Assembly (NCBI GenBank): GCA_964016885.1
Contig: OZ024742.1
Span: 168,640,001-168,704,000, forward strand
Origin: Eledone cirrhosa
Taxonomy: Eukaryota
Direction: 5' to 3'
Length of the DNA: 64,000 bases
Position 1 is the first letter of the stretch. Every line of letters begins with the position of its first letter. Below are positions 1 through 39,884 of this stretch, piece after piece. Under the pieces are notes generated by a model, which ran no database searches, was not told the DNA's origin, and worked only from the letters and a program-made list of their open reading frames with translations. The position numbers and the translations under genes are program-made.

Positions 1-1483
1 CATTAAAAAAAAATTCAATCAAAAACCCATAAAAGAAACATTAAAACAGCATTTAAAAAACCCATTAAAAATTCATTAAAAAAATCCATTTAAAAAATCC
101 ATTAAAAATCCATTAAAAATCCATTAAAAATCCATTAAAAATCCATTAAAAATCCATTAAAAAAATCCATTAAAAAAATCCATTAAAAAATCCATTTAAA
201 AATCCATTAAAAAAAATCCATTAAAAAAAACTCAATCAAAAACCCATAAAAGAAACATTAAAACAGCATTTAAAAAAGCCATTAAAAAAAATCCATTTAA
301 AAAAATCCATTAAAAAAGCCATTAAAAATACATTAAAAATCCATTAAAAATCCATTAAAAATCCATTAAAAATCCATTAAAAATCCATTAAAAATCCATT
401 AAAAAATCCATTTAAAAAAATCCATTAAAAAAATCCATTAAAAAAATCCATTTAAAAAATCCATTTAAAAAATCCATTTAAAAAATCCATTAAAAAAAAT
501 CCATTAAAAAAAATCCATAAAAAAAATCCATTAAAAAAATCCATTAAAAAAAATCCGTTAAAAAAAATCCATTAAAAATCCATTAAAAATCCATTAAAAA
601 TCCATTAAAAATCCATTAAAAAATCCATTTAAAAAAATCCATTAAAAAAAATCCATTAAAAAAATCCATTTAAAAAATCCATTAAAAAAATCCATGAAAA
701 AAAAATCCATTAAAAAAAAAATCCATTAAAAAAAATCAATTTAAAAAAATCCATTAAAAATCCATTAAAAAAAATCCATTTAAAAAAATCCATTAAAAAC
801 CCATTAAAAATCAATTAAAAATCCATTAAAAATCCATTAAAAAATCCATTTAAAAAACCCATTAAAAAAATCCATTAAAAAAATCCATTTAAAAAATCCA
901 TTAAAAAAAATCCATTAGAAAAAACCCATTAAAAAAAATCCATTAAAAAAATCCATTTAAAAAAATCCATTAAAAAAAATCCATTAAAAAAATCCATAAA
1001 AAAATCCATTAAAAAAATCCATTAAAAAAAATCCATTAAAAAAATCCATTAAAAATCCATTAAAAAAAATCCATTAAAAAAATCCATTTAAAAAAATCCA
1101 TTAAAAAAAATCCATTAAAAAAATCCATAAAAAAAATCCATTAAAAAAAATCCATTAAAAAAAAATCCGTTAAAAAAATCCATTAAAAACTCAATCAAAA
1201 ACCAAATTAAAAGGCCATAAAAGAAACATTAAAACAGCATTTAAAATACCATTAAAAACGCCATAAAAAATCATTAAAATCCCATTAAAAATACATTAAA
1301 GGCCCATTAAAAACGCCATAAAAAATCCATTAAAAAAAATCCATTAAAAAAAATCCATTAAAAAAAAATCCGTTAAAAAAATCCATTAAAAACTCAATCA
1401 AAAACCCAATTAAAAGGCCAGAAAAGAAACATTAAAATAGCATTTAAAATACCATTAAAAACGCCATAAAAAATCATTAAAAT
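1..1483. repeat. Internally deleted HOR unit (~1.6 kb, starts before the window)
   Basis: The TTCAATC island at 14 recurs at 1626 (offset 1612). Marker order CCATG (696), TTAGAA (~918) is followed directly by the terminal island pair (1190, 1393). Confidence 0.8.
1190..1325 (+). repeat. Composite diverged-monomer island, empty-site version without the inverted insert
   Basis: CTCAATCAAAAACCAAATTAAAAGGCCATAAAAGAAACATTAAAACAGCATTTAAAATACC...CGCCAT...GGCCC...CGCCAT. It is repeated 203 bp later (1393) with the insert. The same pair starts near 4511, 15692, 26844 and 39535. Confidence 0.9.
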
Positions 1484-1539
1484 TGTTTTTTATGAAATTT
1501 ATAATATGGCTTTTAATGAACTTTTTAATGGGCTTTTAG
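1484..1539 (-). repeat. 56 bp inverted diverged satellite insert, copy 1, with 12 bp flanking direct repeat AATCATTAAAAT
   Basis: Reverse complement reads CTAAAAGCCCATTAAAAAGTTCATTAAAAGCCATATTATAAATTTCATAAAAAACA. Direct repeats lie at 1472-1483 and 1540-1551. Confidence 0.95.
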
Positions 1540-4500
1540 AATCATTAAAATCCCATTAAAAATACATTAAAGGCCCATTAAAAACGCCATAAAAAATCCA
1601 TTAAAAAAAATCCATTAAAAAAAAATTCAATCAAAAACCCATAAAAGAAACATTAAAACCGCATTTAAAAAACCCATTAAAAATTCATTAAAAAAATCCA
1701 TTTAAAAAATCCATTAAAAATCCATTAAAAATCCATTAAAAATCCATTAAAAATCCATTAAAAATAATCCATTAAAAAAATCCATTAAAAAAATCCATTA
1801 AAAAATCCATTTAAAAATCCATTAAAAAAAATCCATTAAAAAAAACTCAATCAAAAACCCATAAAAGAAACATTAAAACAGCATTTAAAAAAGCCATTAA
1901 AAAAAATCCATTTAAAAAAATCCATTAAAAAAGCCATTAAAAATACATTAAAAATCCATTAAAAATCCATTAAAAATCCATTAAAAATCCATTAAAAATC
2001 CATTAAAAATCCATTAAAAAATCCATTTAAAAAAATCCATTAAAAAAATCCATTAAAAAAATCCATTTAAAAAATCCATTTAAAAAATCCATTTAAAAAA
2101 TCCATTAAAAAAAATCCATTAAAAAAAATCCATAAAAAAAATCCATTAAAAAAATCCATTAAAAAAAATCCGTTAAAAAAAATCCATTAAAAATCCATTA
2201 AAAATCCATTAAAAATCCATTAAAAATCCATTAAAAAATCCATTTAAAAAAATCCATTAAAAAAAATCCATTAAAAAAATCCATTTAAAAAATCCATTAA
2301 AAAAATCCATGAAAAAAAAATCCATTAAAAAAAAATCCATTAAAAAAAATCAATTTAAAAAAATCCATTAAAAATCCATTAAAAAAAATCCATTTAAAAA
2401 AATCCATTAAAAACCCATTAAAAATCAATTAAAAATCCATTAAAAATCCATTAAAAAATCCATTTAAAAAACCCATTAAAAAAATCCATTAAAAAAATCC
2501 ATTTAAAAAATCCATTAAAAAAAATCCATTAGAAAAAACCCATTAAAAAAATCCATTAAAAAAATCCATTAAAAAATCCATTTAATAAATCCATTAAAAA
2601 AAATCCATTAAAAAAAACTCAATCAAAAACCCATAAAAGAAACATTAAAACAGCATTTAAAAAACCCATTAAAAATTCATTAAAAAAATCCATTTGAAAA
2701 ATCCATTAAAAATCCATTAAAAATCCATTAAAAATCCATTTAAAATCCATTAAAAATCCATTTAAAAAAATCCATTAAAAAAATCCATTAAAAAATCCAT
2801 TTAATATATCCATTAAAAAAAATCCATTAAAAAAAACTCAATCAAAAACCCATAAAAGAAACATTAAAACAGCATTTAAAAAATCCATTAAAAAAATCCA
2901 TTTAAAAAAATCCATTAAAAAATATATTAAAAATCCAATAAAAATCCATTAAAAATCCATTAAAAAGCCATTAAAAATCCATTAAAAATCCATTAAAAAT
3001 CCATTAAAAATCCATTTAAAAATCCATTTAAAAAAATCCATTAAAAAAATCCATTAAAAAAAACCATTTAAAAAATCCATTAAAAAAAATCCATTAAAAA
3101 AAAATCCATTAAAAAAAAAATCCATTAAAAAAAATCAATTAAAAAAAATCCATTAAAAATCCATTAAAAAATCCATTTAAAAAATCCATTAAAAACCCAT
3201 TAAAAATCCATTAAAAATCCAATAAAAATCCATTTAAAAAACCCATTAAAAAAAATCCATTAAAAAAATCCATTTAAAAAATCCATTAAAAAAAATCCAT
3301 TAAAAAAAACCCATTAAAAAAAAATCCATTAAAAAGATCCATTTAAAAAATCCATTAAAAAAATCCATTAAAAAAAATCCATAAAAAAATCCATTAAAAA
3401 AAATCCATTAAAAAAAAATCCATTAAAAATCCATTAAAAAAATCCATTTAAAAAAATCCATTAAAAAATCCATTAAAAACCCATTAAAAATCCATTAAAA
3501 ATCCATTAAATAAATCCATTTAAAAAATCCATTAAAAAAAATCCATTTAAAAAACCCATTAAAAAAAATCCATTAAAAAAATCCATTTAAAAAATCCATT
3601 AAAAAAAATCCATAAAAAAATCCATTAAAAAAAATCCATTAAAAAAAAATCCGTTAAAAATAATCCATTAAAAATCCATTAAAAATCCATTAAAAATCCA
3701 TTAAAAATCCATTAAAAATCCATTAAAAATCCATTAAAAAATCCATTTAAAAAAATCCATTAAAAAAATCCATTAAAAAAATCAATTTAAAAAATCCATT
3801 AAAAAAAATCCATTAAAAAAAATCAATTTAAAAAAATCCATTAAAAATCCATTAAAAAAATCCATTTAAAAAAATCCATTAAAAACCCATTAAAAATCCA
3901 TTAAAAATCCATTAAAAATCCATTTAAAAAACCCATTAAAAAAAATCCATTAAAAAAATCCATTTAAAAAATCCATAAAAAAAAATCCATTAAAAAAACC
4001 CATTAAAAAAAATCCATTAAAAAATCCATTTAAAAAATCCATTAAAAATACATTAAAGGCCCATTTTAAAATCCATTTAAAAAAATCCATTAAAAAAATC
4101 CATTAAAAAATCCATTTAAAAAATCCATTTAAAAAAATCCATTAAAAAAAATCCATTTAAAAAATCCATTAAAAAATCCATTTAAAAAATCCATTAAAAA
4201 AAATCCATTAAAAAATCCATTAAAAATCCATTTAAAAAAATCCATTAAAAAAAGCCATTAAAAAATCCATTAAAAATCCATTAAAAATCCATTAAAAATC
4301 CATTTAAAAACCCATTAAAAAATCCATTTAAAAAATCCATTTAAAAAATCCATTAAAAAAAATCCATTTAAAAAAACCCATTAAAAAAAATCCATTAAAA
4401 AAATCCATTTAAAAAATCCATTAAAAAAAATCCATTAAAAAAAATCCATAAAAAAAATCCATTAAAAAAAATCCATTAAAAAAAAATCCGTTAAAAAAAT

Positions 4501-4804
4501 CCATTAAAAACTCAATCAAAAACCAAATTAAAAGGCCATAAAAGAAACATTAAAACAGCATTTAAAATACCATTAAAAACGCCATAAAAAATCATTAAAA
4601 TCCCATTAAAAATACATTAAAGGCCCATTAAAAACGCCATAAAAAATCCATTAAAAAAAATCCATTAAAAAAAATCCATTAAAAAAAAATCCGTTAAAAA
4701 AATCCATTAAAAACTCAATCAAAAACCCAATTAAAAGGCCAGAAAAGAAACATTAAAATAGCATTTAAAATACCATTAAAAACGCCATAAAAAATCATTA
4801 AAAT
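1484..4804. repeat. Internally deleted HOR unit, 3,321 bp
   Basis: Insert-to-insert distance. TTAGAA (~2531) is joined to TTTAATAAAT (2581), whereas these markers lie at ~5849 and ~13704 in the full unit. Confidence 0.85.
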
Positions 4805-4860
4805 TGTTTTTTATGAAATTTATAATATGGCTTTTAATGAACTTTTTAATGGGCTTTTAG
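4805..4860 (-). repeat. 56 bp inverted insert, copy 2
   Basis: Same sequence and flanks as 1484-1539. Confidence 0.95.
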
Positions 4861-7017
4861 AATCATTAAAATCCCATTAAAAATACATTAAAGGCCCATT
4901 AAAAACGCCATAAAAAATCCATTAAAAAAAATCCATTAAAAAAAAATTCAATCAAAAACCCATAAAAGAAACATTAAAACAGCATTTAAAAAACCCATTA
5001 AAAATTCATTAAAAAAATCCATTTAAAAAATCCATTAAAAATCCATTAAAAATCCATTAAAAATCCATTAAAAATCCATTAAAAATCCATTAAAAAAATC
5101 CATTAAAAAAATCCATTAAAAAATCCATTTAAAAATCCATTAAAAAAAATCCATTAAAAAAAACTCAATCAAAAACCCATAAAAGAAACATTAAAACAGC
5201 ATTTAAAAAAGCCATTAAAAAAAATCCATTTAAAAAAATCCATTAAAAAAGCCATTAAAAATACATTAAAAATCCATTAAAAATCCATTAAAAATCCATT
5301 AAAAATCCATTAAAAATCCATTAAAAATCCATTAAAAAATCCATTTAAAAAAATCCATTAAAAAAATCCATTAAAAAAATCCATTTAAAAAATCCATTTA
5401 AAAAATCCATTTAAAAAATCCATTAAAAAAAATCCATTAAAAAAAATCCATAAAAAAAATCCATTAAAAAAATCCATTAAAAAAAATCCGTTAAAAAAAA
5501 TCCATTAAAAATCCATTAAAAATCCATTAAAAATCCATTAAAAATCCATTAAAAAATCCATTTAAAAAAATCCATTAAAAAAAATCCATTAAAAAAATCC
5601 ATTTAAAAAATCCATTAAAAAAATCCATGAAAAAAAAATCCATTAAAAAAAAAATCCATTAAAAAAAATCAATTTAAAAAAATCCATTAAAAATCCATTA
5701 AAAAAAATCCATTTAAAAAAATCCATTAAAAACCCATTAAAAATCAATTAAAAATCCATTAAAAATCCATTAAAAAATCCATTTAAAAAACCCATTAAAA
5801 AAATCCATTAAAAAAATCCATTTAAAAAATCCATTAAAAAAAATCCATTAGAAAAAACCCATTAAAAAAAATCCATTAAAAAAATCCATTTAAAAAAATC
5901 CATTAAAAAAAATCCATTAAAAAAATCCATAAAAAAATCCATTAAAAAAATCCATTAAAAAAAATCCATTAAAAAAATCCATTAAAAATCCATTAAAAAA
6001 AATCCATTAAAAAAATCCATTTAAAAAAATCCATTAAAAAAAATCCATTAAAAAAATCCATAAAAAAATCCATTAAAAAAATCCATTAAAAAAAATCCAT
6101 TAAAAAAATCCATTAAAAATCCATTAAAAAAATCCATTTAAAAAAATCCATTTAAAAATCCATTAAAAACCCATTAAAATCCATTAAAAATCCATTAAAA
6201 ATCCATTTAAAAAATCCATTAAAAAAAATCCATTAAAAACACCCATTAAAAAAAATCCATTAAAAAAATCCATTTAAAAAAATCCATTAAAAAAATCCAT
6301 TAGAAAAAACCCATTAAAAAAAATCCATTAAAAAAATCCATTTAAAAAAATCCATTAAAAAAAATCCATTAAAAAAATCCATAAAAAAATCCATTAAAAA
6401 AATCCATTAAAAAAAATCCATTAAAAAAATCCATTAAAAATCCATTAAAAAAATCCATTTAAAAAAATCCATTTAAAAATCCATTAAAAACCCATTAAAA
6501 TCCATTAAAAATCCATTAAAAATCCATTTAAAAAATCCATTAAAAAAAATCCATTAAAAACACCCATTAAAAAAAATCCATTCAAAAAATCCATTTAAAA
6601 AAATCCATTAAAAAAATCCATTAAAAAAATCCATAAAAAAATCCATTAAAAAAATCCATTAAAAAAATCCATTAAAAAAATCCATTAAAAATCCATTAAA
6701 AAAATCCATTTAAAAAAATCCATTTAAAAATCCATTAAAAACCCATTAAAATCCATTAAAAATCCATTAAAAAATCCATTTAAAAAACCCATTAAAAAAA
6801 TCTATGAAAAAAATCCATTTAAAAAATCCATTAAAAAAAATCCATTTAAAAAAACCCATTAAAAAAATCCATTAAAAAAATCCATTTAAAAAATCCATTA
6901 AAAAAAATCCATTAAAAAAAATCCATAAAAAAAATCCATTAAAAAAAATCCATTAAAAAAAAATCCGTTAAAAAAAAATCCATTAAAAAAAAATCCGTTA
7001 AAAAAAATCCATTAAAA

Positions 7018-7107
7018 GCTCAATCAAAAACCCATTAAAAACGCCATAAAAATCATTAAAATCCCATTAAAGATACATTAAAGGCCCATTAAAAACGCCA
7101 TAAAAAA
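7018..7107 (+). repeat. GCTCAATC...AAAGATAC...GGCCC...CGC(C/G)ATA island (representative of 18 copies)
   Basis: Starts at 7018, 9345, 12161, 18211, 20463, 23302, 29351, 31700, 34140, 35991, 42043, 44391, 46887, 51994, 53991, 57785, 59782 and 63576. Confidence 0.9.
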
Positions 7108-10100
7108 TCCATTAAAAAAATCCATTAAAAAAAACTCAATCAAAAACCCATAAAAGAAACATTAAAACAGCATTTAAAAAATCCATTAAAAATCCATTAA
7201 AAAAATCCATTTAAAAAAATCCATTAAAAAATCCATTAAAAATCCATTAAAAATCCATTAAAAATCCATTAAAAACCCATTAAAAATCCATTAAAAATCC
7301 ATTAAAAATCCATTAAAAAATCCATTTAAAAAAATCCATTTAAAAAATCCATTTAAAAAACCCATTACAAAAAATCCATTAAAAAAAATCCATTAAAAAA
7401 AAAGCCATTAAAAAAAATCCAATAAAAAAAATCCATTAAAAATCCATTAAAAAATCCATTAAAAAAAAATCCATTAAAAATCCATTAAAAAATCCATTTA
7501 AAAAACCCATTAAAAAAATCCATTAAAAAAAACTCAATCAAAAACCCATAAAAGAAACATTAAAACAACATTTAAAAAATCCATTAAAAAAATCCATTTA
7601 AAAAAATCCATTAAAAAATCCATTAAAAATCCATTAAAAATCCATTAAAAATCCATTAAAAATCCATTAAAAATCCATTAAAAATCCATTAAAAAATCCA
7701 TTTAAAAAAATCCATTAAAAAATCCATTTAAAAAATCCATTAAAAAAATTCATTAAAAAAAAATCCATTAAAAAAAAATCCATTAAAAAAAATCAATTTA
7801 AAAAAATCCATTAAAAATCCATTAAAAAAATCCATTAAAAAAAATCCATTAAAAACCCATTAAAAACAAATTAAAAACCCATTAAAAATCCATTAAAAAT
7901 CCATTAAAAATCCATTTAAAAAACCCATTTAAAAAAATCCATTAAAAAAAATCCATTTAAAAAATCCATTAAAAAAAATCCATTAAAAAAACCCATTAAA
8001 AAAATCCATTAAAAAAATCCATTTAAAAAATCCATTAAAAAAAATTCATTAAAAAAAAATCCATAAAAAAATCCATTAAAAAAATCCATAAAAAAAAATC
8101 CATTAAAAAAAATCCATTAAAAATCCATTAAAAAAATCCATTTAAAAAAATCCATTAAAAAATCCATTAAAAAACCCATTAAAAATCCATTAAAAATCCA
8201 TTAAAAATCCATTAAAAATCCATTTAAAAAACCCATTAAAAAAATCCATTTAAAAAATCCATTAAAAAAATCCATTAAAAAAACCCATTAAAAAAAATCC
8301 ATTAAAAAAATCCATTAAAAAAATCCATTAAAAAAAAATCCGTTAAAAAAAATCCATTAAAAATCCATTAAAAAATCCATTAAAAAAATCCATTTAAAAA
8401 AATCCATTAAAAAAATCCATTTAAAAAATCCATTAAAAAAAATCCATTAAAAAAAAACCCATTAAAAAAAAATCCATTAAAAAAATCCATTTAAAAAATC
8501 CATTAAAAAAATCCATTAAAAAAAATCCATAAAAAAATCCATTAAAAAAAGTCCATTAAAAAAACCCATTAAAAAAAATCCATTAAAAAATCAATTAAAA
8601 ACCCATTAAAAATCCATTAAAAATCCATTAAAAATCCATTAAAAATCCATTTAAAAAAATCCATTTAAAAAATCCATTAAAAAAATCCATTTAAAAAATC
8701 CATTAAAAAAAATCCATTAAAAAAAAATCCATTAAAAAAAATCCATTAAAAAAAATCAATTTAAAAAAATCCATTAAAAATCCATTAAAAAAATCCATTT
8801 AAAAAAATCCATTAAAAACCCATTAAAAATCCATTAAAAATCCATTAAAAAATCCATTTAAAAAACCCATTAAAAAAAATCCATTAAAAAAAACCCATTA
8901 AAAAATCCATTAAAAAAATCCATTTAAAAAATCCATAAAAAAAAATCCATTAAAAAAATCCATAAAAAAATCCATTAAAAAAATCCATTAAAAAAAAATC
9001 CATTAAAAAAAATCCATTAAAAATCCATTAACAAAATCCATTTAAAAAAATCCATTAAAAAATCCATTAAAAACCCATTAAAAATCCATTAAAAATCCAT
9101 TAAAAATCCATTAAAAAATCCATTTAAAAAACCATTAAAAAAATCCATTTAAAAAATCCATTAAAAAAATCCATTTAAAAAACCCATTAAAAAAAACCCA
9201 TTAAAAAAATCCATTTAAAAAATCCATTAAAAAAAATCCTTTAAAAAAATCCATAAAAAAAATCCATTAAAAAAAATCCATTAAAAAAAAATCCGTTAAA
9301 AAAAATCCATTAAAAAAAAATCCGTTAAAAAAAATCCATTAAAAGCTCAATCAAAAACCCATTAAAAACGCCATAAAAATCATTAAAATCCCATTAAAGA
9401 TACATTAAAGGCCCATTAAAAACGCGATAAAAAATCCATTAAAAAAATCCATTAAAAAAAAATCAATCAAAAACCCATAAAAGAAACATTAAAACAACAT
9501 TTAAAAAATCCATTAAAAATCCATTAAAAAATCCATTTAAAAAAATCCATTAAAAAAAATCCTTTTAAAAAATCCATTTAAAAAATCCATTAAAAAAAAT
9601 CCATTAAAAATATCCATTTAAAAAAAAAGCCATTAAAAAAAATCCATTAAAAAAAATCCATTAAAAATCCATTAAAAATCCATTTAAAAAATCCATTAAA
9701 AAATCCATTAAAAACCCATTAAAAATCCATTAAAAATCCATTAAAAATCCATTAAAAAATCCATTTAAAAAACCCATTAAAAAAATCCATTAAAAAAATC
9801 CATTTAAAAAATCCATTAAAAAAAATCCATTTAAAAAAACCCATTAAAAAAAATCCATTAAAAAAATCCATTTAAAAAATCCATTAAAAAAAATCCATAA
9901 AAAAATCCATTAAAAACAATCCATTAAAAAAAAATCCGTTAAAAAAAATCCATTAAAAATCCATTAAAAATCCATTAAAACATCCATTTAAAAAAATCCA
10001 TTAAAAAAATCCAAAAAAATCAATTAAAAAAATCCATTAAAAAAAATCCATTAAAAACAAAATCCATTAAAAAAAATCAATTTAATAAAATCCATTAAAA

Positions 10101-13100
10101 ATCCATTAAAAAAATCCATTAAAAACCCATTAAAAATCCATTAAAAATCCATTAAAAATCCCTTAAAAATCCATTAAAAATCCATTAAAAATCCATTAAA
10201 AAATCCATTTAAAAAAATCCATTAAAAAAATCAATTAAAAAAATACATTTAAAAAATCCATTTAAAAAATCCATTAAAAAAAAATCCATTAAAAAAAAAT
10301 CCATTAAAAAAAAAATCCATTAAAAAAAATCCATTTAAAAAATCCATTAAAAATCCATTAAAAAAATCCATTTAAAAAAAGCCATTAAAAAGCCATTAAA
10401 AATCCATTAAAAATCCATTAAAAATCCATTAAAAAATCCATTTAAAAAACCCATTAAAAAAATATATTAAAAAAATCCATTTAAAAAATCCATTAAAAAA
10501 AATCCATTAAAAAAAACCCATTAAAAAAAAATCCATTAAAAAAAAATCCATTAAAAAAAAAATCCATTAAAAAAAATCCATTTAAAAAATCCATTAAAAA
10601 TCCATTAAAAAAATCCATTTAAAAAATCCATTAAAAATCCATTAAAAATCCATTAAAAATCCATTAAAAATCCATTAAAAAGCCATTTAAAAAAATCCAT
10701 TAAAAAAATCCATTAAAAAATCCATTTAAAAATCCATTAAAAAAAATCCATTTAAAAAAACTCAATCAAAAACCCATAAAAGAAACATTAAAACAGCATT
10801 TAAAAAAGCCATTAAAAAAAATCCATTTAAAAAAATCCATTAAAAAAGCCATTAAAAATACATTAAAAATCCATTAAAAATCCATTAAAAATCCATTAAA
10901 AATCCATTAAAAAATCCATTTAAAAAAATCCATTAAAAAAATCCATTAAAAAAATCCATTTAAAAAATCCATTAATAAAATCCATTTAAAAAATCCATTA
11001 AAAAAAATCCATTAAAAAAAATCCATAAAAAAAATCCATTAAAAAAATCCATTAAAAAAAATCCGTTAAAAAAAATCCATTAAAAATCCATTAAAAATCC
11101 ATTAAAAATCCATTAAAAATCCATTAAAAATCCATTAAAAAATCCATTTAAAAAAATCCATTAAAAAAATCCATTAAAAAAATCCATTAAAAAAATCCAT
11201 TTAAAAAATCCATTAAAAAAATCCATGAAAAAAAAATCCATTAAAAAAAAAATCCATTAAAAAAAATCAATTTAAAAAAATCCATTAAAAATCCATTAAA
11301 AAAAATCCATTTAAAAAAATCCATTAAAAACCCATTAAAAATCAATTAAAAATCCATTAAAAATCCATTAAAAAATCCATTTAAAAAACCCATTAAAAAA
11401 ATCCATTAAAAAATCCATTTAAAAAATCCATTAAAAAAAATCCATTAGAAAAAACCCATTAAAAAAAATCCATTAAAAAAATCCATTTAAAAAAATCCAT
11501 TAAAAAAAATCAATTAAAAAAATCCATAAAAAAATCCATTAAAAAAATCCATTAAAAAAAATCCATTAAAAAAATCCATTAAAAATCCATTAAAAAAATC
11601 CATTAAAAAAAATCCATTTAAAAATCCATTAAAAACCCATTAAAATCCATTAAAAATCCATTAAAAATCCATTTAAAAAATCCATTTAAAAAAATCCATT
11701 AAAAAAACCCATTAAAAAAAATCCATTTAAAAAATCCATTTAAAAAAATCCATTAAAAAAAATCCATAAAAAAATCCATTAAAAAAATCCATTAAAAAAA
11801 TCCATTAAAAAAATCCATTAAAAATCCATTAAAAAAATCCATTTAAAAAAATCCATTTAAAAATCCATTAAAAACCCATTAAAATCCATTAAAAATCCAT
11901 TAAAAATCCATTAAAAAATCCATTTAAAAAACCCATTAAAAAAATCCATTAAAAAAATCCATTTAAAAAATCCATTAAAAAAAATCCATTTAAAAAAACC
12001 CATTAAAAAAATCCATTAAAAAAATCCATTTAAAAAATCCATTAAAAAAAATCCATTAAAAAAAATCCATAAAAAAAATCCATTAAAAAAAATCCATTAA
12101 AAAAAAATCCGTTAAAAAAAATCCATTAAAAAAAAATCCGTTAAAAAAAATCCATTAAAAGCTCAATCAAAAACCCATTAAAAACGCCATAAAAATCATT
12201 AAAATCCCATTAAAGATACATTAAAGGCCCATTAAAAACGCCATAAAAAATCCATTAAAAAAATCCATTAAAAAAAACTCAATCAAAAACCCATAAAAGA
12301 AACATTAAAACAGCATTTAAAAAATCCATTAAAAATCCATTAAAAAAATCCATTAAAAAAAATCCATTAAAAAATCCATTAAAAATCCATTAAAAATCCA
12401 TTAAAAATCCATTAAAAACCCATTAAAAATCCATTAAAAATCCATTAAAAATCCATTAAAAAATCCATTTAAAAAAATCCATTTAAAAAATCCATTTAAA
12501 AAACCCATTACAAAAAATCCATTAAAAAAAATCCATTAAAAAAAAAGCCATTAAAAAAAATCCATTAAAAAAAATCCGTTAAAAATCCATTAAAAAATCC
12601 ATTTAAAAAAAATCCATTAAAAATCCATTAAAAATCCATTAAAAATCCATTAAAAAATCCATTTAAAAAAATCCATTTAAAAAATCCATTTAAAAAACCC
12701 ATTACAAAAAATCCATTAAAAAAAATCCATTAAAAAAACCCATTAAAAAAATCCATTAAAAAAATCCATTTAAAAAATCCATTAAAAAAAATTCATTAAA
12801 AAAAAATCCATAAAAAAATCCATTAAAAAAATCCATTAAAAAAAAATCCATTAAAAAAAATCCATTAAAAATCCATTAAAAAAATCCATTTAAAAAAATC
12901 GATTAAAAAATCCATTAAAAAACCCATTAAAAATCCATTAAAAATCCATTAAAAATCCATTAAAAATCCATTTAAAAAACCCATTAAAAAAATCCATTTA
13001 AAAAATCCATTAAAAAAAAACCATTAAAAAAAACCCATTAAAAAAAATCCATTAAAAAAATCCATTAAAAAAATCCATTAAAAAAAATCCGTTAAAAAAA

Positions 13101-15985
13101 ATCCATTAAAAATCCATTAAAAAATCCATTAAAAAAATCCATTAAAAAAAATCCATTAAAAAAATCCATTTAAAAAATCCATTAAAAAAAATCCATTAAA
13201 AAAAAACCCATTAAAAAAAAATCCATTAAAAAAATCCATTTAAAAAATCCATTAAAAAAATCCATTAAAAAAAATCCATAAAAAAATCCATTAAAAAAAG
13301 TCCATTAAAAATCAATTAAAAAAACCCATTAAAAAAATCCATTAAAAAATCCATTAAAAACCCATTAAAAATCCATTAAAAATCCATTAAAAAATCCATT
13401 TAAAAAACCCATTAAAAAAATCCATTAAAAAAATCCATTTATAAAATCCATTAAAAAATCCATTAAAAAAAATCCCATTAAAAAAAAATCCATTTAAAAA
13501 ATCCATTAAAAAAAATCCATTAAAAAAAATCCATAAAAAAATCCATTAAAAAAAGTCCATTAAAAATCCATTAAAAAAATCCATTTAAAAAAATCCATTT
13601 AAAAATCCATTAAAAACCCATTAAAAATCCATTAAAAATCCATTAAAAATCCATTAAAAATCCATTTAAAAAAATCCATTAAAAAAATCCATTAAAAAAT
13701 CCATTTAATAAATCCATTAAAAAAAATCCATTAAAAAAAACTCAATCAAAAACCCATAAAAGAAACATTAAAACAGCATTTAAAAAACCCATTAAAAATT
13801 CATTAAAAAAATCCATTTGAAAAATCCATTAAAAATCCATTAAAAATCCATTAAAAATCCATTTAAAATCCATTAAAAATCCATTTAAAAAAATCCATTA
13901 AAAAAATCCATTAAAAAATCCATTTAATATATCCATTAAAAAAAATCCATTAAAAAAAACTCAATCAAAAACTCATAAAAGAAACATTAAAACAGCATTT
14001 AAAAAATCCATTAAAAAAATCCATTTAAAAAAATCCATTAAAAAATATATTAAAAATCCAATAAAAATCCATTAAAAATCCATTAAAAAGCCATTAAAAA
14101 TCCATTAAAAATCCATTAAAAATCCATTAAAAATCCATTAAAAATCCATTTAAAAATCCATTTAAAAAAATCCATTAAAAAAATCCATTAAAAAAAACCA
14201 TTTAAAAAATCCATTAAAAAAAATCCATTAAAAAAAAATCCATTAAAAAAAAAATCCATTAAAAAAAATCAATTAAAAAAAATCCATTAAAAATCCATTA
14301 AAAAATCCATTTAAAAAATCCATTAAAAACCCATTAAAAATCCATTAAAAATCCAATAAAAATCCATTTAAAAAACCCATTAAAAAAAATCCATTAAAAA
14401 AATCCATTAAAAAAATCCATTAAAAAAAATCCATTAAAAAAAACCCATTAAAAAAAAATCCATTAAAAAGATCCATTTAAAAAATCCATTAAAAAAATCC
14501 ATTAAAAAAAATCCATAAAAAAATCCATTAAAAAAAATCCATTAAAAAAAAATCCATTAAAAATCCATTAAAAAAATCCATTTAAAAAATCCATTAAAAA
14601 ATCCATTAAAAACCCATTAAAAATCCATTAAAAATCCATTAAAAATCCATTAAAAAATCCATTTAAAAAACCCATTAAAAAAATCCATTAAATAAATCCA
14701 TTTAAAAAATCCATTAAAAAAAATCCATTTAAAAAACCCATTAAAAAAAATCCATTAAAAAAATCCATTTAAAAAATCCATTAAAAAAAATCCATAAAAA
14801 AATCCATTAAAAAAAATCCATTAAAAAAAAATCCGTTAAAAATAATCCATTAAAAATCCATTAAAAATCCATTAAAAATCCATTAAAAATCCATTAAAAA
14901 TCCATTAAAAATCCATTAAAAAATCCATTTAAAAAAATCCATTAAAAAAATCCATTAAAAAAATCAATTTAAAAAATCCATTAAAAAAAATCCATTAAAA
15001 AAAATCAATTTAAAAAAATCCATTAAAAATCCATTAAAAAAATCCATTTAAAAAAATCCATTAAAAACCCATTAAAAATCCATTAAAAATCCATTAAAAA
15101 TCCATTTAAAAAACCCATTAAAAAAAATCCATTAAAAAAATCCATTTAAAAAATCCATAAAAAAAAATCCATTAAAAAAACCCATTAAAAAAAATCCATT
15201 AAAAAATCGATTTAAAAAATCCATTAAAAATACATTAAAGGCCCATTTTAAAATCCATTTAAAAAAATCCATTAAAAAATCCATTAAAAAATCCATTTAA
15301 AAAATCCATTAAAAAAAATCCATTAAAAAAAATCCATTTAAAAAATCCATTAAAAAATCCATTTAAAAAATCCATTAAAAAAAATCCATTAAAAAATCCA
15401 TTAAAAATCCATTAAAAAAAATCCATTTAAAAAAGCCATTAAAAAATCCATTAAAAATCCATTAAAAATCCATTAAAAATCCATTTAAAAACCCATTAAA
15501 AAATCCATTTAAAAAATCCATTTAAAAAATCCATTAAAAAAAATCCATTTAAAAAAACCCATTAAAAAAAATCCATTAAAAAAATCCATTTAAAAAATCC
15601 ATTAAAAAAAATCCATTAAAAAAAATCCATAAAAAAAATCCATTAAAAAAAATCCATTAAAAAAAAATCCGTTAAAAAAATCCATTTAAAACTCAATTAA
15701 AAACCAAATTAAAAGGCCATAAAAGAAACATTAAAACAGCATTTAAAATACCATTAAAAACGCCATAAAAAATCATTAAAATCCCATTAAAAATACATTA
15801 AAGGCCCATTAAAAACGCCATAAAAAATCCATTAAAAAAAATCCATTAAAAAAAATCCATTAAAAAAAAATCCGTTAAAAAAATCCATTAAAAACTCAAT
15901 CAAAAACCCAATTAAAAGGCCAGAAAAGAAACATTAAAATAGCATTTAAAATACCATTAAAAACGCCATAAAAAATCATTAAAAT

Positions 15986-16041
15986 TGTTTTTTATGAAAT
16001 TTATAATATGGCTTTTAATGAACTTTTTAATGGGCTTTTAG
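15986..16041 (-). repeat. 56 bp inverted insert, copy 3
   Basis: Same sequence and flanks as 1484-1539. Confidence 0.95.
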
Positions 16042-19000
16042 AATCATTAAAATCCCATTAAAAATACATTAAAGGCCCATTAAAAACGCCATAAAAAATC
16101 CATTAAAAAAAATCCATTAAAAAAAAATTCAATCAAAAACCCATAAAAGAAACATTAAAACAGCATTTAAAAAACCCATTAAAAATTCATTAAAAAAATC
16201 CATTTAAAAAATCCATTAAAAATCCATTAAAAATCCATTAAAAATCCATTAAAAATCCATTAAAAATAATCCATTAAAAAAATCCATTAAAAAAATCCAT
16301 TAAAAAATTCATTTAAAAATCCATTAAAAAAAATCCATTAAAAAAAACTCAATCAAAAACCCATAAAAGAAACATTAAAACAGCATTTAAAAAAGCCATT
16401 AAAAAAAATCCATTTAAAAAAATCCATTAAAAAAGCCATTAAAAATACATTAAAAATCCATTAAAAATCCATTAAAAATCCATTAAAAATCCATTAAAAA
16501 TCCATTAAAAATCCATTAAAAATCCATTAAAAAATCCATTTAAAAAAATCCATTAAAAAAATCCATTAAAAAAATCCATTTAAAAAATCCATTTAAAAAA
16601 TCCATTTAAAAAATCCATTAAAAAAAATCCATTAAAAAAAATCCATAAAAAAAATCCATTAAAAAAATCCATTAAAAAAAATCCGTTAAAAAAAATCCAT
16701 TAAAAATCCATTAAAAATCCATTAAAAATCCATTAAAAATCCATTTAAAAATCCATTTAAAAAAATCCATTAAAAAAATCCATTAAAAAAATCCATTTAA
16801 AAAATCCATTAAAAAAATCCATGAAAAAAAAATCCATTAAAAAAAAAATCCATTAAAAAAAATCAATTTAAAAAAATCCATTAAAAATCCATTAAAAAAA
16901 ATCCATTTAAAAAAATCCATTAAAAACCCATTAAAAATCAATTAAAAATCCATTAAAAATCCATTAAAAAATCCATTTAAAAAACCCCTTTAAAAAAATC
17001 CATTAAAAAAATCCATTTAAAAAATCCATTAAAAAAAATCCATTAGAAAAAACCCATTAAAAAAAATCCATTAAAAAAATCCATTTAAAAAAATCCATTA
17101 AAAAAAATCCATTAAAAAAATCCATAAAAAAATCCATTAAAAAAATCCATTAAAAAAAATCCATTAAAAAAATCCATTAAAAATCCATTAAAAAAAATCC
17201 ATTAAAAAAATCCATTTAAAAAAATCCATTAAAAAAAATCCATTAAAAAAATCCATAAAAAAATCCATTAAAAAAATCCATTAAAAAAAATCCATTAAAA
17301 AATTTCATTAAAAATCCATTAAAAAAATCCATTTAAAAAAATCCATTTAAAAATCCATTAAAAACCCATTAAAATCCATTAAAAATCCATTAAAAATCCA
17401 TTTAAAAAATCCATTAAAAAAAATCCATTAAAAACACCCATTAAAAAAATCCATTAAAAAAATCCATTTAAAAAAATCCATTAAAAAAATCCATTAGAAA
17501 AAACCCATTAAAAAAAATCCATTAAAAAAATCCATTTAAAAAAATCCATTAAAAAAAATCCATTAAAAAAATCCATAAAAAAATCAATTAAAAAAATCCA
17601 TTAAAAAAAATCCATTAAAAAAATCCATTAAAAATCCATTAAAAAAATCCATTTAAAAAAATCCATTTAAAAATCCATTAAAAACCCATTAAAATCCATT
17701 AAAAATCCATTAAAAATCCATTTAAAAAATCCATTAAAAAAAATCCATTAAAAACACCCATTAAAAAAAATCCATTAAAAAAATCCATTTAACAAAATCC
17801 ATTAAAAAAATCCATTAAAAAAATCCATAAAAAAATCCATTAAAAAATCCATTAAAAAAATCCATTAAAAAAATCCATTAAAAATCCATTAAAAAAATCC
17901 ATTTAAAAAAATCCATTTAAAAATCCATTAAAAACCCATTAAAATCCATTAAAAATCCATTAAAAAATCCATTTAAAAAACCCATTAAAAAAATCTATGA
18001 AAAAAATCCATTTAAAAAATCCATTAAAAAAAATCCATTTAAAAAAACCCATTAAAAAAATCCATTAAAAAAATCCATTTAAAAAATCCATTAAAAAAAA
18101 TCCATTAAAAAAAATCCATAAAAAAAATCCATTAAAAAAAATCCATTAAAAAAAAATCCGTTAAAAAAAAATCCATTAAAAAAAAATCCGTTAAAAAAAA
18201 TCCATTAGAAGCTCAATCAAAAACCCATTAAAAACGCCATAAAAATCATTAAAATCCCATTAAAGATACATTAAAGGCCCATTAAAAACGCCATAAAAAA
18301 TCCATTAAAAAAATCCATTTAAAAAAATCCATTAAAAAATCCATTAAAAATCCATTAAAAATCCATTAAAAATCCATTAAAAACCCATTAAAAATCCATT
18401 AAAAATCCATTAAAAATCCATTAAAAAATCCATTTAAAAAAATCCATTTAAAAAATCCATTTAAAAAACCCATTACAAAAAATCCATTAAAAAAAATCCA
18501 TTAAAAAAAAAGCCATTAAAAAAAATCCAATAAAAAAAATCCATTAAAAATCCATTAAAAAATCCATTTAAAAAAAATCCATTAAAAATCCATTAAAAAA
18601 TCCATTTAAAAAACCCATTAAAAAAATCCATTAAAAAAAACTCAATCAAAAACCCATAAAAGAAACATTAAAACAACATTTAAAAAATCCATTAAAAAAA
18701 TCCATTTAAAAAAATCCATTAAAAAATCCATTAAAAATCCATTAAAAATCCATTAAAAATCCATTAAAAATCCATTAAAAATCCATTAAAAATCCATTAA
18801 AAAATCCATTTAAAAAAATCCATTAAAAAATCCATTTAAAAAATCCATTAAAAAAATCCATTAAAAAAAATCCATTAAAAAAAAATCCATTAAAAAAAAT
18901 CAATTTAAAAAAATCCATTAAAAATCCATTAAAAAAATCCATTAAAAAAAATCCATTAAAAACCCATTAAAAACAAATTAAAAACCCATTAAAAATCCAT

Positions 19001-22000
19001 TAAAAATCCATTAAAAATCCATTTAAAAAACCCATTTAAAAAAATCCATTAAAAAAAATCCATTTAAAAAATCCATTAAAAAAAATCCATTAAAAAAACC
19101 CATTAAAAAAATCCATTAAAAAAATCCATTTAAAAAATCCATTATCAAAAATTCATTAAAAAAAATCCATAAAAAAATCCATTAAAAAAATCCATTAAAA
19201 AAAATCCATTAAAAAAAATCCATTAAAAATCCATTAAAAAAATCCATTTAAAAAAATCCATTAAAAAATCCATTAAAAAACCCATTAAAAATCCATTAAA
19301 AATCCATTAAAAATCCATTAAAAATCCATTTAAAAAACCCATTAAAAAAATCCATTTAAAAAATCCATTAAAAAAATCCATTAAAAAAACCCATTAAAAA
19401 AAATCCATTAAAAAAATCCATTAAAAAAATCCATTAAAAAAAAATCCGTTAAAAAAAATCCATTAAAAATCCATTAAAAAATCCATTAAAAAAATCCATT
19501 TAAAAAAATCCATTAAAAAAATCCATTTAAAAAATCCATTAAAAAAAATCCATTAAAAAAAAACCCATTAAAAAAAAATCCATTAAAAAAATCCATTTAA
19601 AAAATCCATTAAAAAAATCCATTAAAAAAAATCCATAAAAAATCCATTAAAAAAAGTCCATTAAAAAAACCCATTAAAAAAAATCCATTAAAAAATCAAT
19701 TAAAAACCCATTAAAAATCCATTAAAAATCCATTAAAAATCCATTAAAAATCCATTTAAAAAAATCCATTTAAAAAATCCATTAAAAAAATCCATTTAAA
19801 AAATCCATTAAAAAAAATCCATTAAAAAAAAATCCATTAAAAAAAATCCATTAAAAAAAATCAATTTAAAAAAATCCATTAAAAATCCATTAAAAAAATC
19901 CATTTAAAAAAATCCATTAAAAACCCATTAAAAATCCATTAAAAATCCATTAAAAAATCCATTTAAAAAACCCATTAAAAAAAATCCATTAAAAAAAACC
20001 CATTAAAAAATCCATTAAAAAAATCCATTTAAAAAATCCATAAAAAAAAATCCATTAAAAAAATCCATAAAAAAATCCATTAAAAAAATCCATTAAAAAA
20101 AAATCCATTAAAAAAAATCCATTAAAAATCCATTAACAAAATCCATTTAAAAAAATCCATTAAAAAATCCATTAAAAACCCATTAAAAATCCATTAAAAA
20201 TCCATTAAAAATCCATTAAAAAATCCATTTAAAAAACCATTAAAAAAATCCATTAAAAAAATCCATTTAAAAAATCCATTAAAAAAATCCATTTAAAAAA
20301 CCCATTAAAAAAAACCCATTAAAAAAATCCATTTAAAAAATCCATTAAAAAAAATCCATTAAAAAAATCCATAAAAAAAATCCATTAAAAAAAATCCATT
20401 AAAAAAAAATCCGTTAAAAAAAATCCATTAAAAAAAAATCCGTTAAAAAAAATCCATTAAAAGCTCAATCAAAAACCCATTAAAAACGCCATAAAAATCA
20501 TTAAAATCCCATTAAAGATACATTAAAGGCCCATTAAAAACGCGATAAAAAATCCATTAAAAAAATCCATTAAAAAAAAATCAATCAAAAACCCATAAAA
20601 GAAACATTAAAACAACATTTAAAAAATCCATTAAAAATCCATTAAAAAATCCATTTAAAAAAATCCATTAAAAAAAATCCTTTTAAAAAATCCATTTAAA
20701 AAATCCATTAAAAAAAATCCATTAAAAATATCCATTTAAAAAAAAAGCCATTAAAAAAAATCCATTAAAAAAAATCCATTAAAAATCCATTAAAAATCCA
20801 TTTAAAAAATCCATTAAAAAATCCATTAAAAACCCATTAAAAATCCATTAAAAATCCATTAAAAATCCATTAAAAAATCCATTTAAAAAACCCATTAAAA
20901 AAATCCATTAAAAAAATCCATTTAAAAAATCCATTAAAAAAAATCCATTTAAAAAAACCCATTAAAAAAAATCCATTAAAAAAATCCATTTAAAAAATCC
21001 ATTAAAAAAAATCCATAAAAAAATCCATTAAAAACAATCCATTAAAAAAAAATCCGTTAAAAAAAATCCATTAAAAATCCATTAAAAATCCATTAAAACA
21101 TCCATTTAAAAAAATCCATTAAAAAAATCCAAAAAAATCAATTAAAAAAATCCATTAAAAAAAATCCATTAAAAACAAAATCCATTAAAAAAAATCAATT
21201 TAATAAAATCCATTAAAAATCCATTAAAAAAATCCATTAAAAACCCATTAAAAATCCATTAAAAATCCATTAAAAATCCCTTAAAAATCCATTAAAAATC
21301 CATTAAAAATCCATTAAAAAATCCATTTAAAAAAATCCATTAAAAAAATCAATTAAAAAAATACATTTAAAAAATCCATTTAAAAAATCCATTAAAAAAA
21401 AATCCATTAAAAAAAAATCCATTAAAAAAAAAATCCATTAAAAAAAATCCATTTAAAAAATCCATTAAAAATCCATTAAAAAAATCCATTTAAAAAAAGC
21501 CATTAAAAAGCCATTAAAAATCCATTAAAAATCCATTAAAAATCCATTAAAAAATCCATTTAAAAAACCCATTAAAAAAATATATTAAAAAAATCCATTT
21601 AAAAAATCCATTAAAAAAAATCCATTAAAAAAACCCATTAAAAAAAAATCCATTAAAAAAAAATCCATTAAAAAAAAAATCCATTAAAAAAAATCCATTT
21701 AAAAAATCCATTAAAAATCCATTAAAAAAATCCATTTAAAAAATCCATTAAAAATCCATTAAAAATCCATTAAAAATCCATTAAAAATCCATTAAAAAGC
21801 CATTTAAAAAAATCCATTAAAAAAATCCATTAAAAAATCCATTTAAAAATCCATTAAAAAAAATCCATTTAAAAAAACTCAATCAAAAACCCATAAAAGA
21901 AACATTAAAACAGCATTTAAAAAAGCCATTAAAAAAAATCCATTTAAAAAAATCCATTAAAAAAGCCATTAAAAATACATTAAAAATCCATTAAAAATCC

Positions 22001-25000
22001 ATTAAAAATCCATTAAAAATCCATTAAAAATCCATTAAAAAATCCATTTAAAAAAATCCATTAAAAAAATCCATTAAAAAAATCCATTTAAAAAATCCAT
22101 TAATAAAATCCATTTAAAAAATCCATTAAAAAAAATCCATTAAAAAAAATCCATAAAAAAAATCCATTAAAAAAATCCATTAAAAAAAATCCGTTAAAAA
22201 AAATCCATTAAAAATCCATTAAAAATCCATTAAAAATCCATTAAAAATCCATTAAAAATCCATTAAAAAATCCATTTAAAAAAATCCATTAAAAAAATCC
22301 ATTAAAAAAATCCATTAAAAAAATCCATTTAAAAAATCCATTAAAAAAATCCATGAAAAAAAAATCCATTAAAAAAAAAATCCATTAAAAAAAATCAATT
22401 TAAAAAAATCCATTAAAAATCCATTAAAAAAAATCCATTTAAAAAAATCCATTAAAAACCCATTAAAAATCAATTAAAAATCCATTAAAAATCCATTAAA
22501 AAATCCATTTAAAAAACCCATTAAAAAAATCCATTAAAAAATCCATTTAAAAAATCCATTAAAAAAAATCCATTAGAAAAAACCCATTAAAAAAAATCCA
22601 TTAAAAAAATCCATTTAAAAAAATCCATTAAAAAAAATCAATTAAAAAAATCCATAAAAAAATCCATTAAAAAAATCCATTAAAAAAAATCCATTAAAAA
22701 AATCCATTAAAAATCCATTAAAAAAATCCATTAAAAAAAATCCATTTAAAAATCCATTAAAAACCCATTAAAATCCATTAAAAATCCATTAAAAATCCAT
22801 TTAAAAAATCCATTAAAAAAAATCCATTAAAAAAACCCATTAAAAAAAATCCATTTAAAAAATCCATTTAAAAAAATCCATTAAAAAAAATCCATTAAAA
22901 AAATCCATAAAAAAATCCATTAAAAAAATCCATTAAAAAAATCCATTAAAAAAATCCATTAAAAATCCATTAAAAAAATCCATTTAAAAAAATCCATTTA
23001 AAAATCCATTAAAAACCCATTAAAATCCATTAAAAATCCATTAAAAATCCATTAAAAAATCCATTTAAAAAACCCATTAAAAAAATCCATTAAAAAAATC
23101 CATTTAAAAAATCCATTAAAAAAAATCCATTTAAAAAAACCCATTAAAAAAATCCATTAAAAAAATCCATTTAAAAAATCCATTAAAAAAAATCCATTAA
23201 AAAAAATCCATAAAAAAAATCCATTAAAAAAAATCCATTAAAAAAAAATCCGTTAAAAAAAATCCATTAAAAAAAAATCCGTTAAAAAAAATCCATTAAA
23301 AGCTCAATCAAAAACCCATTAAAAACGCCATAAAAATCATTAAAATCCCATTAAAGATACATTAAAGGCCCATTAAAAACGCCATAAAAAATCCATTAAA
23401 AAAATCCATTAAAAAAAACTCAATCAAAAACCCATAAAAGAAACATTAAAACAGCATTTAAAAAATCCATTAAAAATCCATTAAAAAAATCCATTAAAAA
23501 AAATCCATTAAAAAATCCATTAAAAATCCATTAAAAATCCATTAAAAATCCATTAAAAACCCATTAAAAATCCATTAAAAATCCATTAAAAATCCATTAA
23601 AAAATCCATTTAAAAAAATCCATTTAAAAAATCCATTTAAAAAACCCATTACAAAAAATCCATTAAAAAAAATCCATTAAAAAAAAAGCCATTAAAAAAA
23701 ATCCATTAAAAAAAATCCGTTAAAAATCCATTAAAAAATCCATTTAAAAAAAATCCATTAAAAATCCATTAAAAATCCATTAAAAATCCATTAAAAAATC
23801 CATTTAAAAAAATCCATTTAAAAAATCCATTTAAAAAACCCATTACAAAAAATCCATTAAAAAAAATCCATTAAAAAAACCCATTAAAAAAATCCATTAA
23901 AAAAATCCATTTAAAAAATCCATTAAAAAAAATTCATTAAAAAAAAATCCATAAAAAAATCCATTAAAAAAATCCATTAAAAAAAAATCCATTAAAAAAA
24001 ATCCATTAAAAATCCATTAAAAACATCCATTTAAAAAAATCGATTAAAAAATCCATTAAAAAACCCATTAAAAATCCATTAAAAATCCATTAAAAATCCA
24101 TTAAAAATCCATTTAAAAAACCCATTAAAAAAATCCATTTAAAAAATCCATTAAAAAAAAACCATTAAAAAAAACCCATTAAAAAAAATCCATTAAAAAA
24201 ATCCATTAAAAAAATCCATTAAAAAAAATCCGTTAAAAAAAATCCATTAAAAATCCATTAAAAAATCCATTAAAAAAATCCATTAAAAAAAATCCATTAA
24301 AAAAATCCATTTAAAAAATCCATTAAAAAAAATCCATTAAAAAAAACCCATTAAAAAAAAATCCATTAAAAAAATCCATTTAAAAAATCCATTAAAAAAA
24401 TCCATTAAAAAAAATCCATAAAAAAATCCATTAAAAAAAGTCCATTAAAAATCAATTAAAAAAACCCATTAAAAAAATCCATTAAAAAATCCATTAAAAA
24501 CCCATTAAAAATCCATTAAAAATCCATTAAAAAATCCATTTAAAAAACCCATTAAAAAAATCCATTAAAAAAATCCATTTATAAAATCCATTAAAAAATC
24601 CATTAAAAAAAATCCCATTAAAAAAAAATCCATTAAAAAAATCCATTTAAAAAATCCATTAAAAAAAATCCATTAAAAAAAATCCATAAAAAAATCCATT
24701 AAAAAAAGTCCATTAAAAATCCATTAAAAAAATCCATTTAAAAAAATCCATTTAAAAATCCATTAAAAACCCATTAAAAATCCATTAAAAATCCATTAAA
24801 AATCCATTAAAAATCCATTTAAAAAAATCCATTAAAAAAATCCATTAAAAAATCCATTTAATAAATCCATTAAAAAAAATCCATTAAAAAAAACTCAATC
24901 AAAAACCCATAAAAGAAACATTAAAACAGCATTTAAAAAACCCATTAAAAATTCATTAAAAAAATCCATTTGAAAAATCCATTAAAAATCCATTAAAAAT

Positions 25001-27136: not shown

Positions 27137-27192
27137 TGTTTTTTATGAAATTTATAATATGGCTTTTAATGAACTTTTTAATGGGCTTTTAG
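27137..27192 (-). repeat. 56 bp inverted insert, copy 4
   Basis: Same sequence and flanks as 1484-1539. Confidence 0.95.
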
Positions 27193-39828: not shown

Positions 39829-39884
39829 TGTTTTTTATGAAATTTATAATATGGCTTTTAATGAACTTTTTAATGGGCTTTTAG
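39829..39884 (-). repeat. 56 bp inverted insert, copy 5
   Basis: Same sequence and flanks as 1484-1539. Confidence 0.95.

What the first reader, a model, noticed from the sequence alone, without database searches (positions are those of the whole stretch)
1472..1551. 56 bp inverted satellite insert with a 12 bp target-site-like duplication and an adjacent empty site
Seen: this is the only T-rich stretch in the array, and it is 4-5 diverged monomers in reverse orientation, bracketed by AATCATTAAAAT on both sides. The paralogous island 203 bp upstream (~1258-1290) has a single AATCATTAAAAT and no insert, so filled and empty alleles sit side by side. Five identical copies occur (1484, 4805, 15986, 27137, 39829). 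I saw no exact forward-orientation source in the window (AAAAGTTCATT, GCCATATTAT). Inference: one templated insertion later amplified with the HOR. Candidate mechanisms are polymerase-theta-type end joining, template switching, or target-primed reverse transcription of a satellite RNA, which typically leaves duplications of this size.
Basis: partly seen in the sequence, partly recalled or inferred. Interest (0 to 1): 0.75.

Follow-up and report, generated by a model that had tools for sequence, protein, structure and literature searches.

The report
Copied-in scar amplified within a satellite
A 56-base stretch copied exactly from the parent repeat of this satellite sits between two copies of a 12-base target in about 260 places of one array; it is likely a single DNA-repair or replication slip that later multiplied with the array, an ordinary kind of event and not a jumping element.

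Summary
The donor exists. The 56-mer is an exact piece of the natively inverted arm of a 6.1-kb parent repeat on C2 and C4, with other flanks and no duplication. The parent also carries the target site once, so the filled allele is derived. Target and donor are collinear, so no inversion was needed. At one C2 locus an empty site with the same derived features as the window's array lies 416 bp from a donor. All 55 filled copies sampled share both junctions; 259 occur genome-wide, all on one strand. No half-way allele is in the assembly. The junctions have 3 nt and 0 nt of microhomology, no poly(A) and no L1 cut consensus. Best reading: one local DNA-templated switch, then array amplification (0.55). 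Rivals: two steps (0.30; one low-depth contig fits) and retro-copying (0.10). Independent mobility is not supported. This is a known class with a close Drosophila precedent.

The parts
1472..1483 (+). Left copy of the 12-bp duplicated target sequence
   Evidence: identical to 1540-1551, no extension on either side
1481..1483 (+). 3-nt microhomology (AAT) shared by the target end and the bases before the 56-mer in the donor
   Evidence: 3 nt or more arises at 7.3% of possible donor starts
1484..1539 (+). 56-bp insert, 56/56 identical to the start of the T-rich inverted arm of the 6.1-kb parent repeat on C2 and C4
1540..1551 (+). Right copy of the 12-bp duplication; its junction with the insert has no microhomology
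   Evidence: 0 nt is the common chance outcome (63.9%)
1546..1596 (+). Downstream flank predicted to pair with the insert as an imperfect hairpin with a 7-nt loop
   Evidence: -24.3 kcal/mol, z -5.85 against shuffles; 5-7% of random donor-target pairs score as well
1371..1589 (+). Filled island: remnant of the start of the parent unit's A-rich arm, carrying the insert (ends approximate)
   Evidence: With insert and one 12-mer removed it aligns to the C2 empty island with few differences
1168..1318 (+). Empty paralogous island, with the single 12-mer at 1269-1280
   Evidence: matches the parent unit except for one substitution and one extra T
4793..4872 (+). Second filled copy (empty partner at 4590-4601)
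15974..16053 (+). Third filled copy (empty partner at 15771-15782)
27125..27204 (+). Fourth filled copy (empty partner at 26922-26933)
39817..39896 (+). Fifth filled copy (empty partner at 39614-39625)
50..64000 (+). Host array: homogeneous satellite of 10-14 bp monomers with higher-order blocks; part of a C3 array of about 757 kb

Best explanation
The 56 bases are an exact copy of the inverted arm of the satellite's own 6.1-kb parent repeat, likely laid down once by a DNA polymerase that left the target, copied a nearby donor and came back 12 bases early, and then likely multiplied with the array. Shown: donor identity, collinearity of donor and target, the ancestral empty site, one shared pair of junctions, and junction microhomology of 3 and 0 nt. 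Inferred: a 3' end ending in AAT at a broken or stalled target primed on the donor arm about 0.5 kb away on the same molecule, in a locus like the C2 one; synthesis ran 56 nt; the end rejoined the target 12 nt upstream of where it left, without microhomology, which made the duplication; a piece with one filled and one empty island then seeded the C3 array. The enzyme (Pol theta-type end joining, or a fork template switch of the FoSTeS/MMBIR kind) cannot be told from sequence.
For: Exact donor with other flanks and no duplication: 10 of 10 C2 loci; donor right flank 113 times, the 100 listed on C2 (48) and C4 (52), none on C3. Parent units carry the site once (48 single sites in parent-type context). 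Three derived features of the C3 array (extra T in the site, new 3' junction, short island) occur 93, 96 and 173 times in 210 kb of C3 and twice each in one C2 locus, but 0 times in 205 kb of the C2 homogeneous array and 350 kb of parent units. In that C2 locus the donor ends 416 bp before a matching empty site on the same strand. Of 99 copies sampled, 55 are filled with the same two junctions and 44 are donor-type; there is no third context. Genome-wide: 259 filled, all on one strand; left junction followed by donor flank 0 real matches (1 unrelated chance hit); donor left flank with right junction 0. Junction depths in X1 are nearly equal (872, 920). Only this small insert was found in 459 kb of homogeneous array.
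Against: One contig in run X5 (another organism label, depth 4.6) joins the left junction to the donor's own right flank, the intermediate that a two-step route predicts. The right junction has no microhomology, whereas Pol theta joins are primed by base pairing, and templated insertions are generally under 25 bp (PMC12426944, passages). The 3-nt microhomology has a 7.3% chance level. No filled allele was found on C2 and no donor among the listed C3 places, so the place of the event is inferred; the C3 array ends at an assembly gap. Earlier scan notes describe active Penelope-type mobilisation in this genome (unchecked).
Confidence: 0.55

Rival explanations
1. Two steps. First a microhomology (AAT) junction joined the island to the donor arm: a 484-bp tandem duplication or circle in the C2-type locus, or a deletion of about 2.8-3.2 kb. 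Later this hybrid was cut back to 56 nt, either by a 416-bp deletion or because a break in an empty island copied from the hybrid by homology, ran 56 nt past the border and was end-joined (one-sided invasion; mechanism recalled). The 12-bp repeat is then a leftover and not a staggered cut.
For: The X5 contig has exactly the first-step structure, with 254 further donor bases. It explains 3 nt at one junction and 0 nt at the other. The C2 geometry allows it. The same hybrid-junction-first model is proposed for Rsp-like insertions in 1.688 satellite (10.1101/846238, passages).
Against: No intermediate in the assembly (with positive control) and no excess of the left junction in X1.
Confidence: 0.3
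2. Target-primed reverse transcription of a satellite transcript by a LINE or Penelope-like enzyme: a staggered cut, internal priming of the target's AAT on an A-rich-strand RNA, 56 nt copied (a tailless retrocopy).
For: A 12-bp duplication is in the range for tailless retropseudogenes (8-35 nt screened, PMC5322556) and near Penelope duplications (8-10 bp, PMC3846280), passages. 3-nt priming homology at one end. Earlier notes report Penelope-type activity in this genome (unchecked).
Against: No poly(A); neither possible nick fits TTTT/A (sequence). No Rfam family in three parent-unit loci. It landed in its own family, beside a donor in the inferred source locus. No dispersed copies with other flanks. 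No RNA run holds the parent stretch at more than 0.10 of its words, so transcription is not shown.
Confidence: 0.1
3. A tiny independently mobile element with its own target duplication.
For: About 260 copies with a perfect duplication.
Against: One target site only (55 of 55 filled copies), one strand, and the piece is an internal part of a longer native arm.
Confidence: 0.02
4. The filled allele is ancestral and the empty sites arose by deletion between the 12-bp repeats.
For: Deletion between direct repeats is a common event (established knowledge) and may have produced some empty sites on C3.
Against: Parent units on C2 and C4 have the site once and the 56-mer in its native arm 2.8 kb away, so the filled allele is a chimera of two parts of the unit.
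Confidence: 0.01

Closest known systems
Rsp-like insertions into 1.688 satellite clusters in Drosophila simulans and D. mauritiana (10.1101/846238, passages read; published as PMC7403614, listing only)
   Same: Satellite DNA inserted into a satellite array, one junction at microhomology, the other without a clear one, in four clusters a 32-bp duplication of target, spread afterwards as a higher-order unit; MMEJ, FoSTeS/MMBIR and SDSA with template switch proposed.
   Different: There an unrelated satellite seeds many clusters. Here a 56-bp piece of the same family's parent unit entered once and rode one array to about 260 copies.
Templated insertions of Pol theta-mediated end joining (PMC12426944, passages)
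   Same: Exact copy of sequence near the site, primed by minimal base pairing.
   Different: Generally under 25 bp and rejoined at microhomology; here 56 bp, 0 nt at the second junction, with a 12-bp duplication.
[quoted passage not shown]
   Same: A short target duplication with a locally templated insert made by end joining, with no transposase or reverse transcriptase.
   Different: The rice donors are described within 200 bp of the break; here the nearest donor start is 484 bp away in the inferred source locus.
FoSTeS/MMBIR (PMC4888836, passages)
   Same: Switch to a nearby microhomologous template, short synthesis, return to the original template.
   Different: The return here shows no microhomology.
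Tailless retropseudogenes (PMC5322556) and class 1 TSIPs (PMC5110952), passages
   Same: Short templated piece between target duplications; internal priming without a tail in the first.
   Different: No L1 cut consensus, no poly(A) or signal, no known RNA source, insertion into its own family.

Membership tests
DNA-templated insertion (end joining or template switch) | Insert is an exact copy of an intact donor | tested here: met
   56/56 match to the parent arm, donors intact
DNA-templated insertion (end joining or template switch) | Donor near the target | tested here: inconclusive
   416 bp from a matching empty site on C2, but filled alleles were seen only on C3, where no donor is listed
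DNA-templated insertion (end joining or template switch) | Microhomology at the priming junction | tested here: met
   3 nt; chance level 7.3%
Pol theta templated insertion, strict | Microhomology at the resolving junction | tested here: not met
   0 nt
Pol theta templated insertion, strict | Dependence on Pol theta | not testable with these tools
   Needs genetics
Class 1 TSIP / L1 trans-mobilised copy | Target duplication of 5 bp or more | tested here: met
   12 bp
Class 1 TSIP / L1 trans-mobilised copy | Poly(A) tract of 10-40 nt | tested here: not met
   The insert is donor-templated to the last base at both ends
Class 1 TSIP / L1 trans-mobilised copy | Cut at 5'-TTTT/A-3' | tested here: not met
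   Possible nicks read GATT/TTTT (bottom strand) or AAAT/CCCA (top strand)
Tailless retropseudogene | Internal priming by complementarity, duplication of 8-35 nt | tested here: met
   3 nt and 12 bp; not specific to this class
Tailless retropseudogene | Source is a transcribed RNA | tested here: inconclusive
   No RNA run with more than 0.10 of the words; the kind of run X4 is not on record
Penelope-mobilised sequence | pLTR or ribozyme-bearing end attached to the cargo | tested here: not met
   The insert is pure parent-arm sequence; Rfam 0 matches in L013, L057, L070
Independent mobile element | Several target sites with different duplications | tested here: not met
   55 of 55 filled copies at one site; 259 on one strand

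The most novel reading that the evidence does not exclude
Fold-back-guided capture: the parent repeat's T-rich arm pairs with the A-rich target on the same single strand, brings the donor's end next to the target, and lets the polymerase or ligase jump without microhomology. Satellites with oppositely oriented arms would then write pieces of one arm into the other at their best-pairing site, and this locus, with donor, empty site, possible intermediate and 260-fold amplification, would be a worked case.
Probability: 0.2. Interest if true: 0.55.

Novelty: new member of a known kind. Interest (0 to 1): 0.3.

Why it matters
It is an unusually complete natural record of one small rearrangement in satellite DNA: donor, ancestral empty site, a likely source locus and about 260 descendants are all in one genome. 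It shows that a neat 12-bp duplication in a satellite is not by itself a sign of retrotransposition. The insert is a lineage tag: it ties the 757-kb C3 array to a junction on C2 where a simple satellite grew out of a 6.1-kb parent repeat, and it appears to differ in abundance between individuals. It does not reveal a new mobile element or mechanism.

Tried and rejected
DNA search with the 80-bp filled allele scored only 40 of 427 candidates, all on C3, so it gave no census. Two gapped motif searches for other strand-switch junctions found 0 but had no positive control, so they show nothing. The parent unit as a transposon with fixed ends was rejected: the six array ends printed fall at different places in the unit. 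A splice-acceptor origin of the insert's AG end was considered; AG is 2.6-2.9% of arm positions, post hoc and with no other support. Self-templated fold-back synthesis from the downstream flank was rejected: the insert is 83% like the flank's reverse complement but 100% like the donor. The small hairpin loop is no evidence, because any junction of opposed 10-14 bp monomers gives one. Hairpin pairing strength is suggestive only: the target is in the top 0.57% of 9085 window positions, but 47 of 1003 donor windows and 5.1-7.0% of 6000 random pairs do as well, and 164 of 1003 fold at least as stably. Run X4 has no coverage of the insert or the donor core, which the tool's filter may cause, so it was not used. 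Paper searches found nothing. PMC4020087 was not held. Pfam did not name the ORF in L070.

Full report
Observation. The window is one satellite of 10-14 bp monomers. Short-read contigs of run X1 span both junctions at depths 872 and 920, against 1353 for the 59-bp core shared with the donor, and 29 raw reads of X24 show the right junction. The allele is real.

The donor. The exact 56-mer occurs 286 times in the 3.0-Gb genome, 222 forward and 64 reverse. In 10 of 10 C2 loci fetched it has other flanks and no duplication. There it is a native part of a tandem unit of about 6.1-6.2 kb: a 3.3-kb arm of diverged A-rich monomers, a strand switch, a T-rich arm, simple repeats, a short unique part, a second T-rich arm and TA/CA microsatellite. 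The 56-mer starts about 15 bp past the strand switch. The donor's right flank occurs 113 times; the 100 listed places are on C2 (48) and C4 (52), none on C3.

Polarity and orientation. The same unit carries the ancestor of the window's island, with the target site once and 2.8 kb before the donor on the same strand. Forty-eight such single sites were counted in parent-type context. The filled allele is therefore a chimera of two parts of the unit and is derived. The insert looks inverted only because its source arm is inverted; the insertion itself was collinear.

A likely source locus. At C2:245.157-245.162 Mb the parent array passes into homogeneous satellite. Three derived features of the C3 array (an extra T in the site, a new 3' junction of the island, a short island) occur 93, 96 and 173 times in 210 kb of C3 samples and twice each here. 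They occur 0 times in 205 kb of the C2 homogeneous array and 350 kb of parent units. Here a donor ends 416 bp before an empty site of the window's type and starts 484 bp before that site's end. That the C3 array came from such a piece, and that the event took place there, are inferences. No filled allele was seen on C2.

One event. The C3 array runs from about 167,989,130 to an assembly gap near 168,746,700. A gapped pattern for both junctions finds 259 copies, all forward; the 100 listed are on C3. This misses the variant with a change at insert position 2. In the fetched stretches (L011-L111 and the window; L001-L010 left out of this count), 55 of 99 copies are filled with the same junctions (one has a substitution in the left 12-mer) and 44 are donor-type, 7 of these with an internal deletion. 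Internal substitutions mark sub-lineages. In 459 kb of homogeneous array (41 loci) this was the only small foreign insert; the other foreign pieces were parent-unit stretches of about 3 kb on C2. Neither half-way allele is in the assembly: left junction with donor flank gave 1 unrelated chance hit, donor flank with right junction gave 0.

Junctions. The left junction shares 3 nt with the donor (chance 7.3%); the right shares none (chance 63.9%). There are no untemplated bases and no poly(A). Neither possible nick fits the L1 consensus given in PMC5110952 (passages). The insert is predicted to pair with the downstream flank (-24.3 kcal/mol, z -5.85). The target is the best partner in the window (top 0.57% of 9085 positions), but 5.1-7.0% of 6000 random donor-target pairs score as well, and the test was made after seeing the pairing.

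Mechanism. The simplest reading is one excursion: priming on the donor at 3 nt, 56 nt of synthesis, and a return 12 nt early (0.55). End joining at staggered breaks makes small duplications (PMC8355091, passages). Duplications with locally templated inserts are described for rice (as summarised in PMC7407515, passages). FoSTeS/MMBIR gives a switch with return (PMC4888836, passages). Strict Pol theta membership fails on the second junction and fits poorly on length (PMC12426944, passages).

The result most against the one-step reading is a 374-base contig of run X5, labelled as another organism, at depth 4.6. It runs from the island through the left junction and core into 254 bases that begin as the donor's flank. 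That is the intermediate of a two-step route (0.30). It may be a chimera across the shared core. One-sided invasion, named as a possible second step, is recalled; I saw it only as a reference title.

Reverse transcription (0.10) stays open. Tailless retropseudogenes have duplications of this size and internal priming (PMC5322556, passages), Penelope insertions have 8-10 bp duplications (PMC3846280, passages), and unchecked scan notes report Penelope-type activity in this genome. Against it: no ribozyme or other Rfam match in three parent loci, no RNA holder above 0.10, no dispersed copies, and a landing site in the donor's own family.

Comparison and novelty. The closest case is Rsp-like insertion into 1.688 clusters in Drosophila: one microhomology junction, a variable second junction, a 32-bp target duplication in four clusters, and a hybrid-first model (10.1101/846238, passages). 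Its supplements were not seen and may hold closer junction examples. Searches listed no paper on this satellite, but the organism's name was not known to me, so this does not show that it is unpublished. The scan's index held no note near this place or with these words. Verdict: a new member of a known kind, interest 0.30, well documented but ordinary in mechanism.

Noticed in passing
G000:C2:245,157,000-245,205,000 (L057-L060, L015, L016): The homogeneous satellite grows out of one monomer stretch inside the 6.1-kb parent unit. Three parent pieces of about 3 kb, cut 270 nt into the T-rich arm, remain embedded in it. The homogeneous C2 array was still present at 245.585 Mb and gone at 245.600 Mb.
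   Followed up: partly
Runs X23 and X24 laid on window:1385-1615 and L012:9090-9720: Two individuals from one RAD-seq study differ: X24 has 29 reads with the right junction against a depth of about 14 on the donor flank; X23 has 37 donor-flank reads out of a depth of about 38. The filled allele may vary strongly in copy number, but RAD libraries are biased.
   Followed up: no
G000:C2:245,157,610 (L057): A further allele of the same site with a 3-bp duplication; other copies carry substitutions there. The site has at least five derived states.
   Followed up: no
L070, about 1050-4000 (C2:250.556-250.559 Mb): A 2.9-kb insertion in the unit's TA microsatellite with inverted terminal repeats and a 351-aa open frame (1087-2139, +). 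It looks like the 3' part of a Penelope-like element by recalled motifs; Pfam did not name it.
   Followed up: partly
G000:C4:140.036-140.073, 142.445-142.482 and 204.69-205.07 Mb; C2:248.28-248.34 and 250.50-250.70 Mb: Several arrays of the parent unit on two chromosomes with ends at different places in the unit. The first C4 array starts at a junction of about 5 nt of microhomology with another satellite, and the large C4 array changes strand near 204.931 Mb.
   Followed up: partly
L065 and L067 (C2:248.283 and 250.7025 Mb): The outer junctions of two C2 arrays with the flanking satellite are mirror images of each other, which suggests a large inverted duplication or inversion between 248.28 and 250.70 Mb.
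   Followed up: no
G000:C3:167,987,500-167,989,130 (L027) and beyond 168,746,700 (L035): The C3 array abuts a 9-10 bp A-rich satellite on the left, and on the right a 200-N gap followed by other repetitive DNA.
   Followed up: no
L017, L055, L065, L083, L084: Seven of 44 sampled donor arms carry an internal deletion that starts 35 nt into the 56-mer region, apparently between similar monomers.
   Followed up: no
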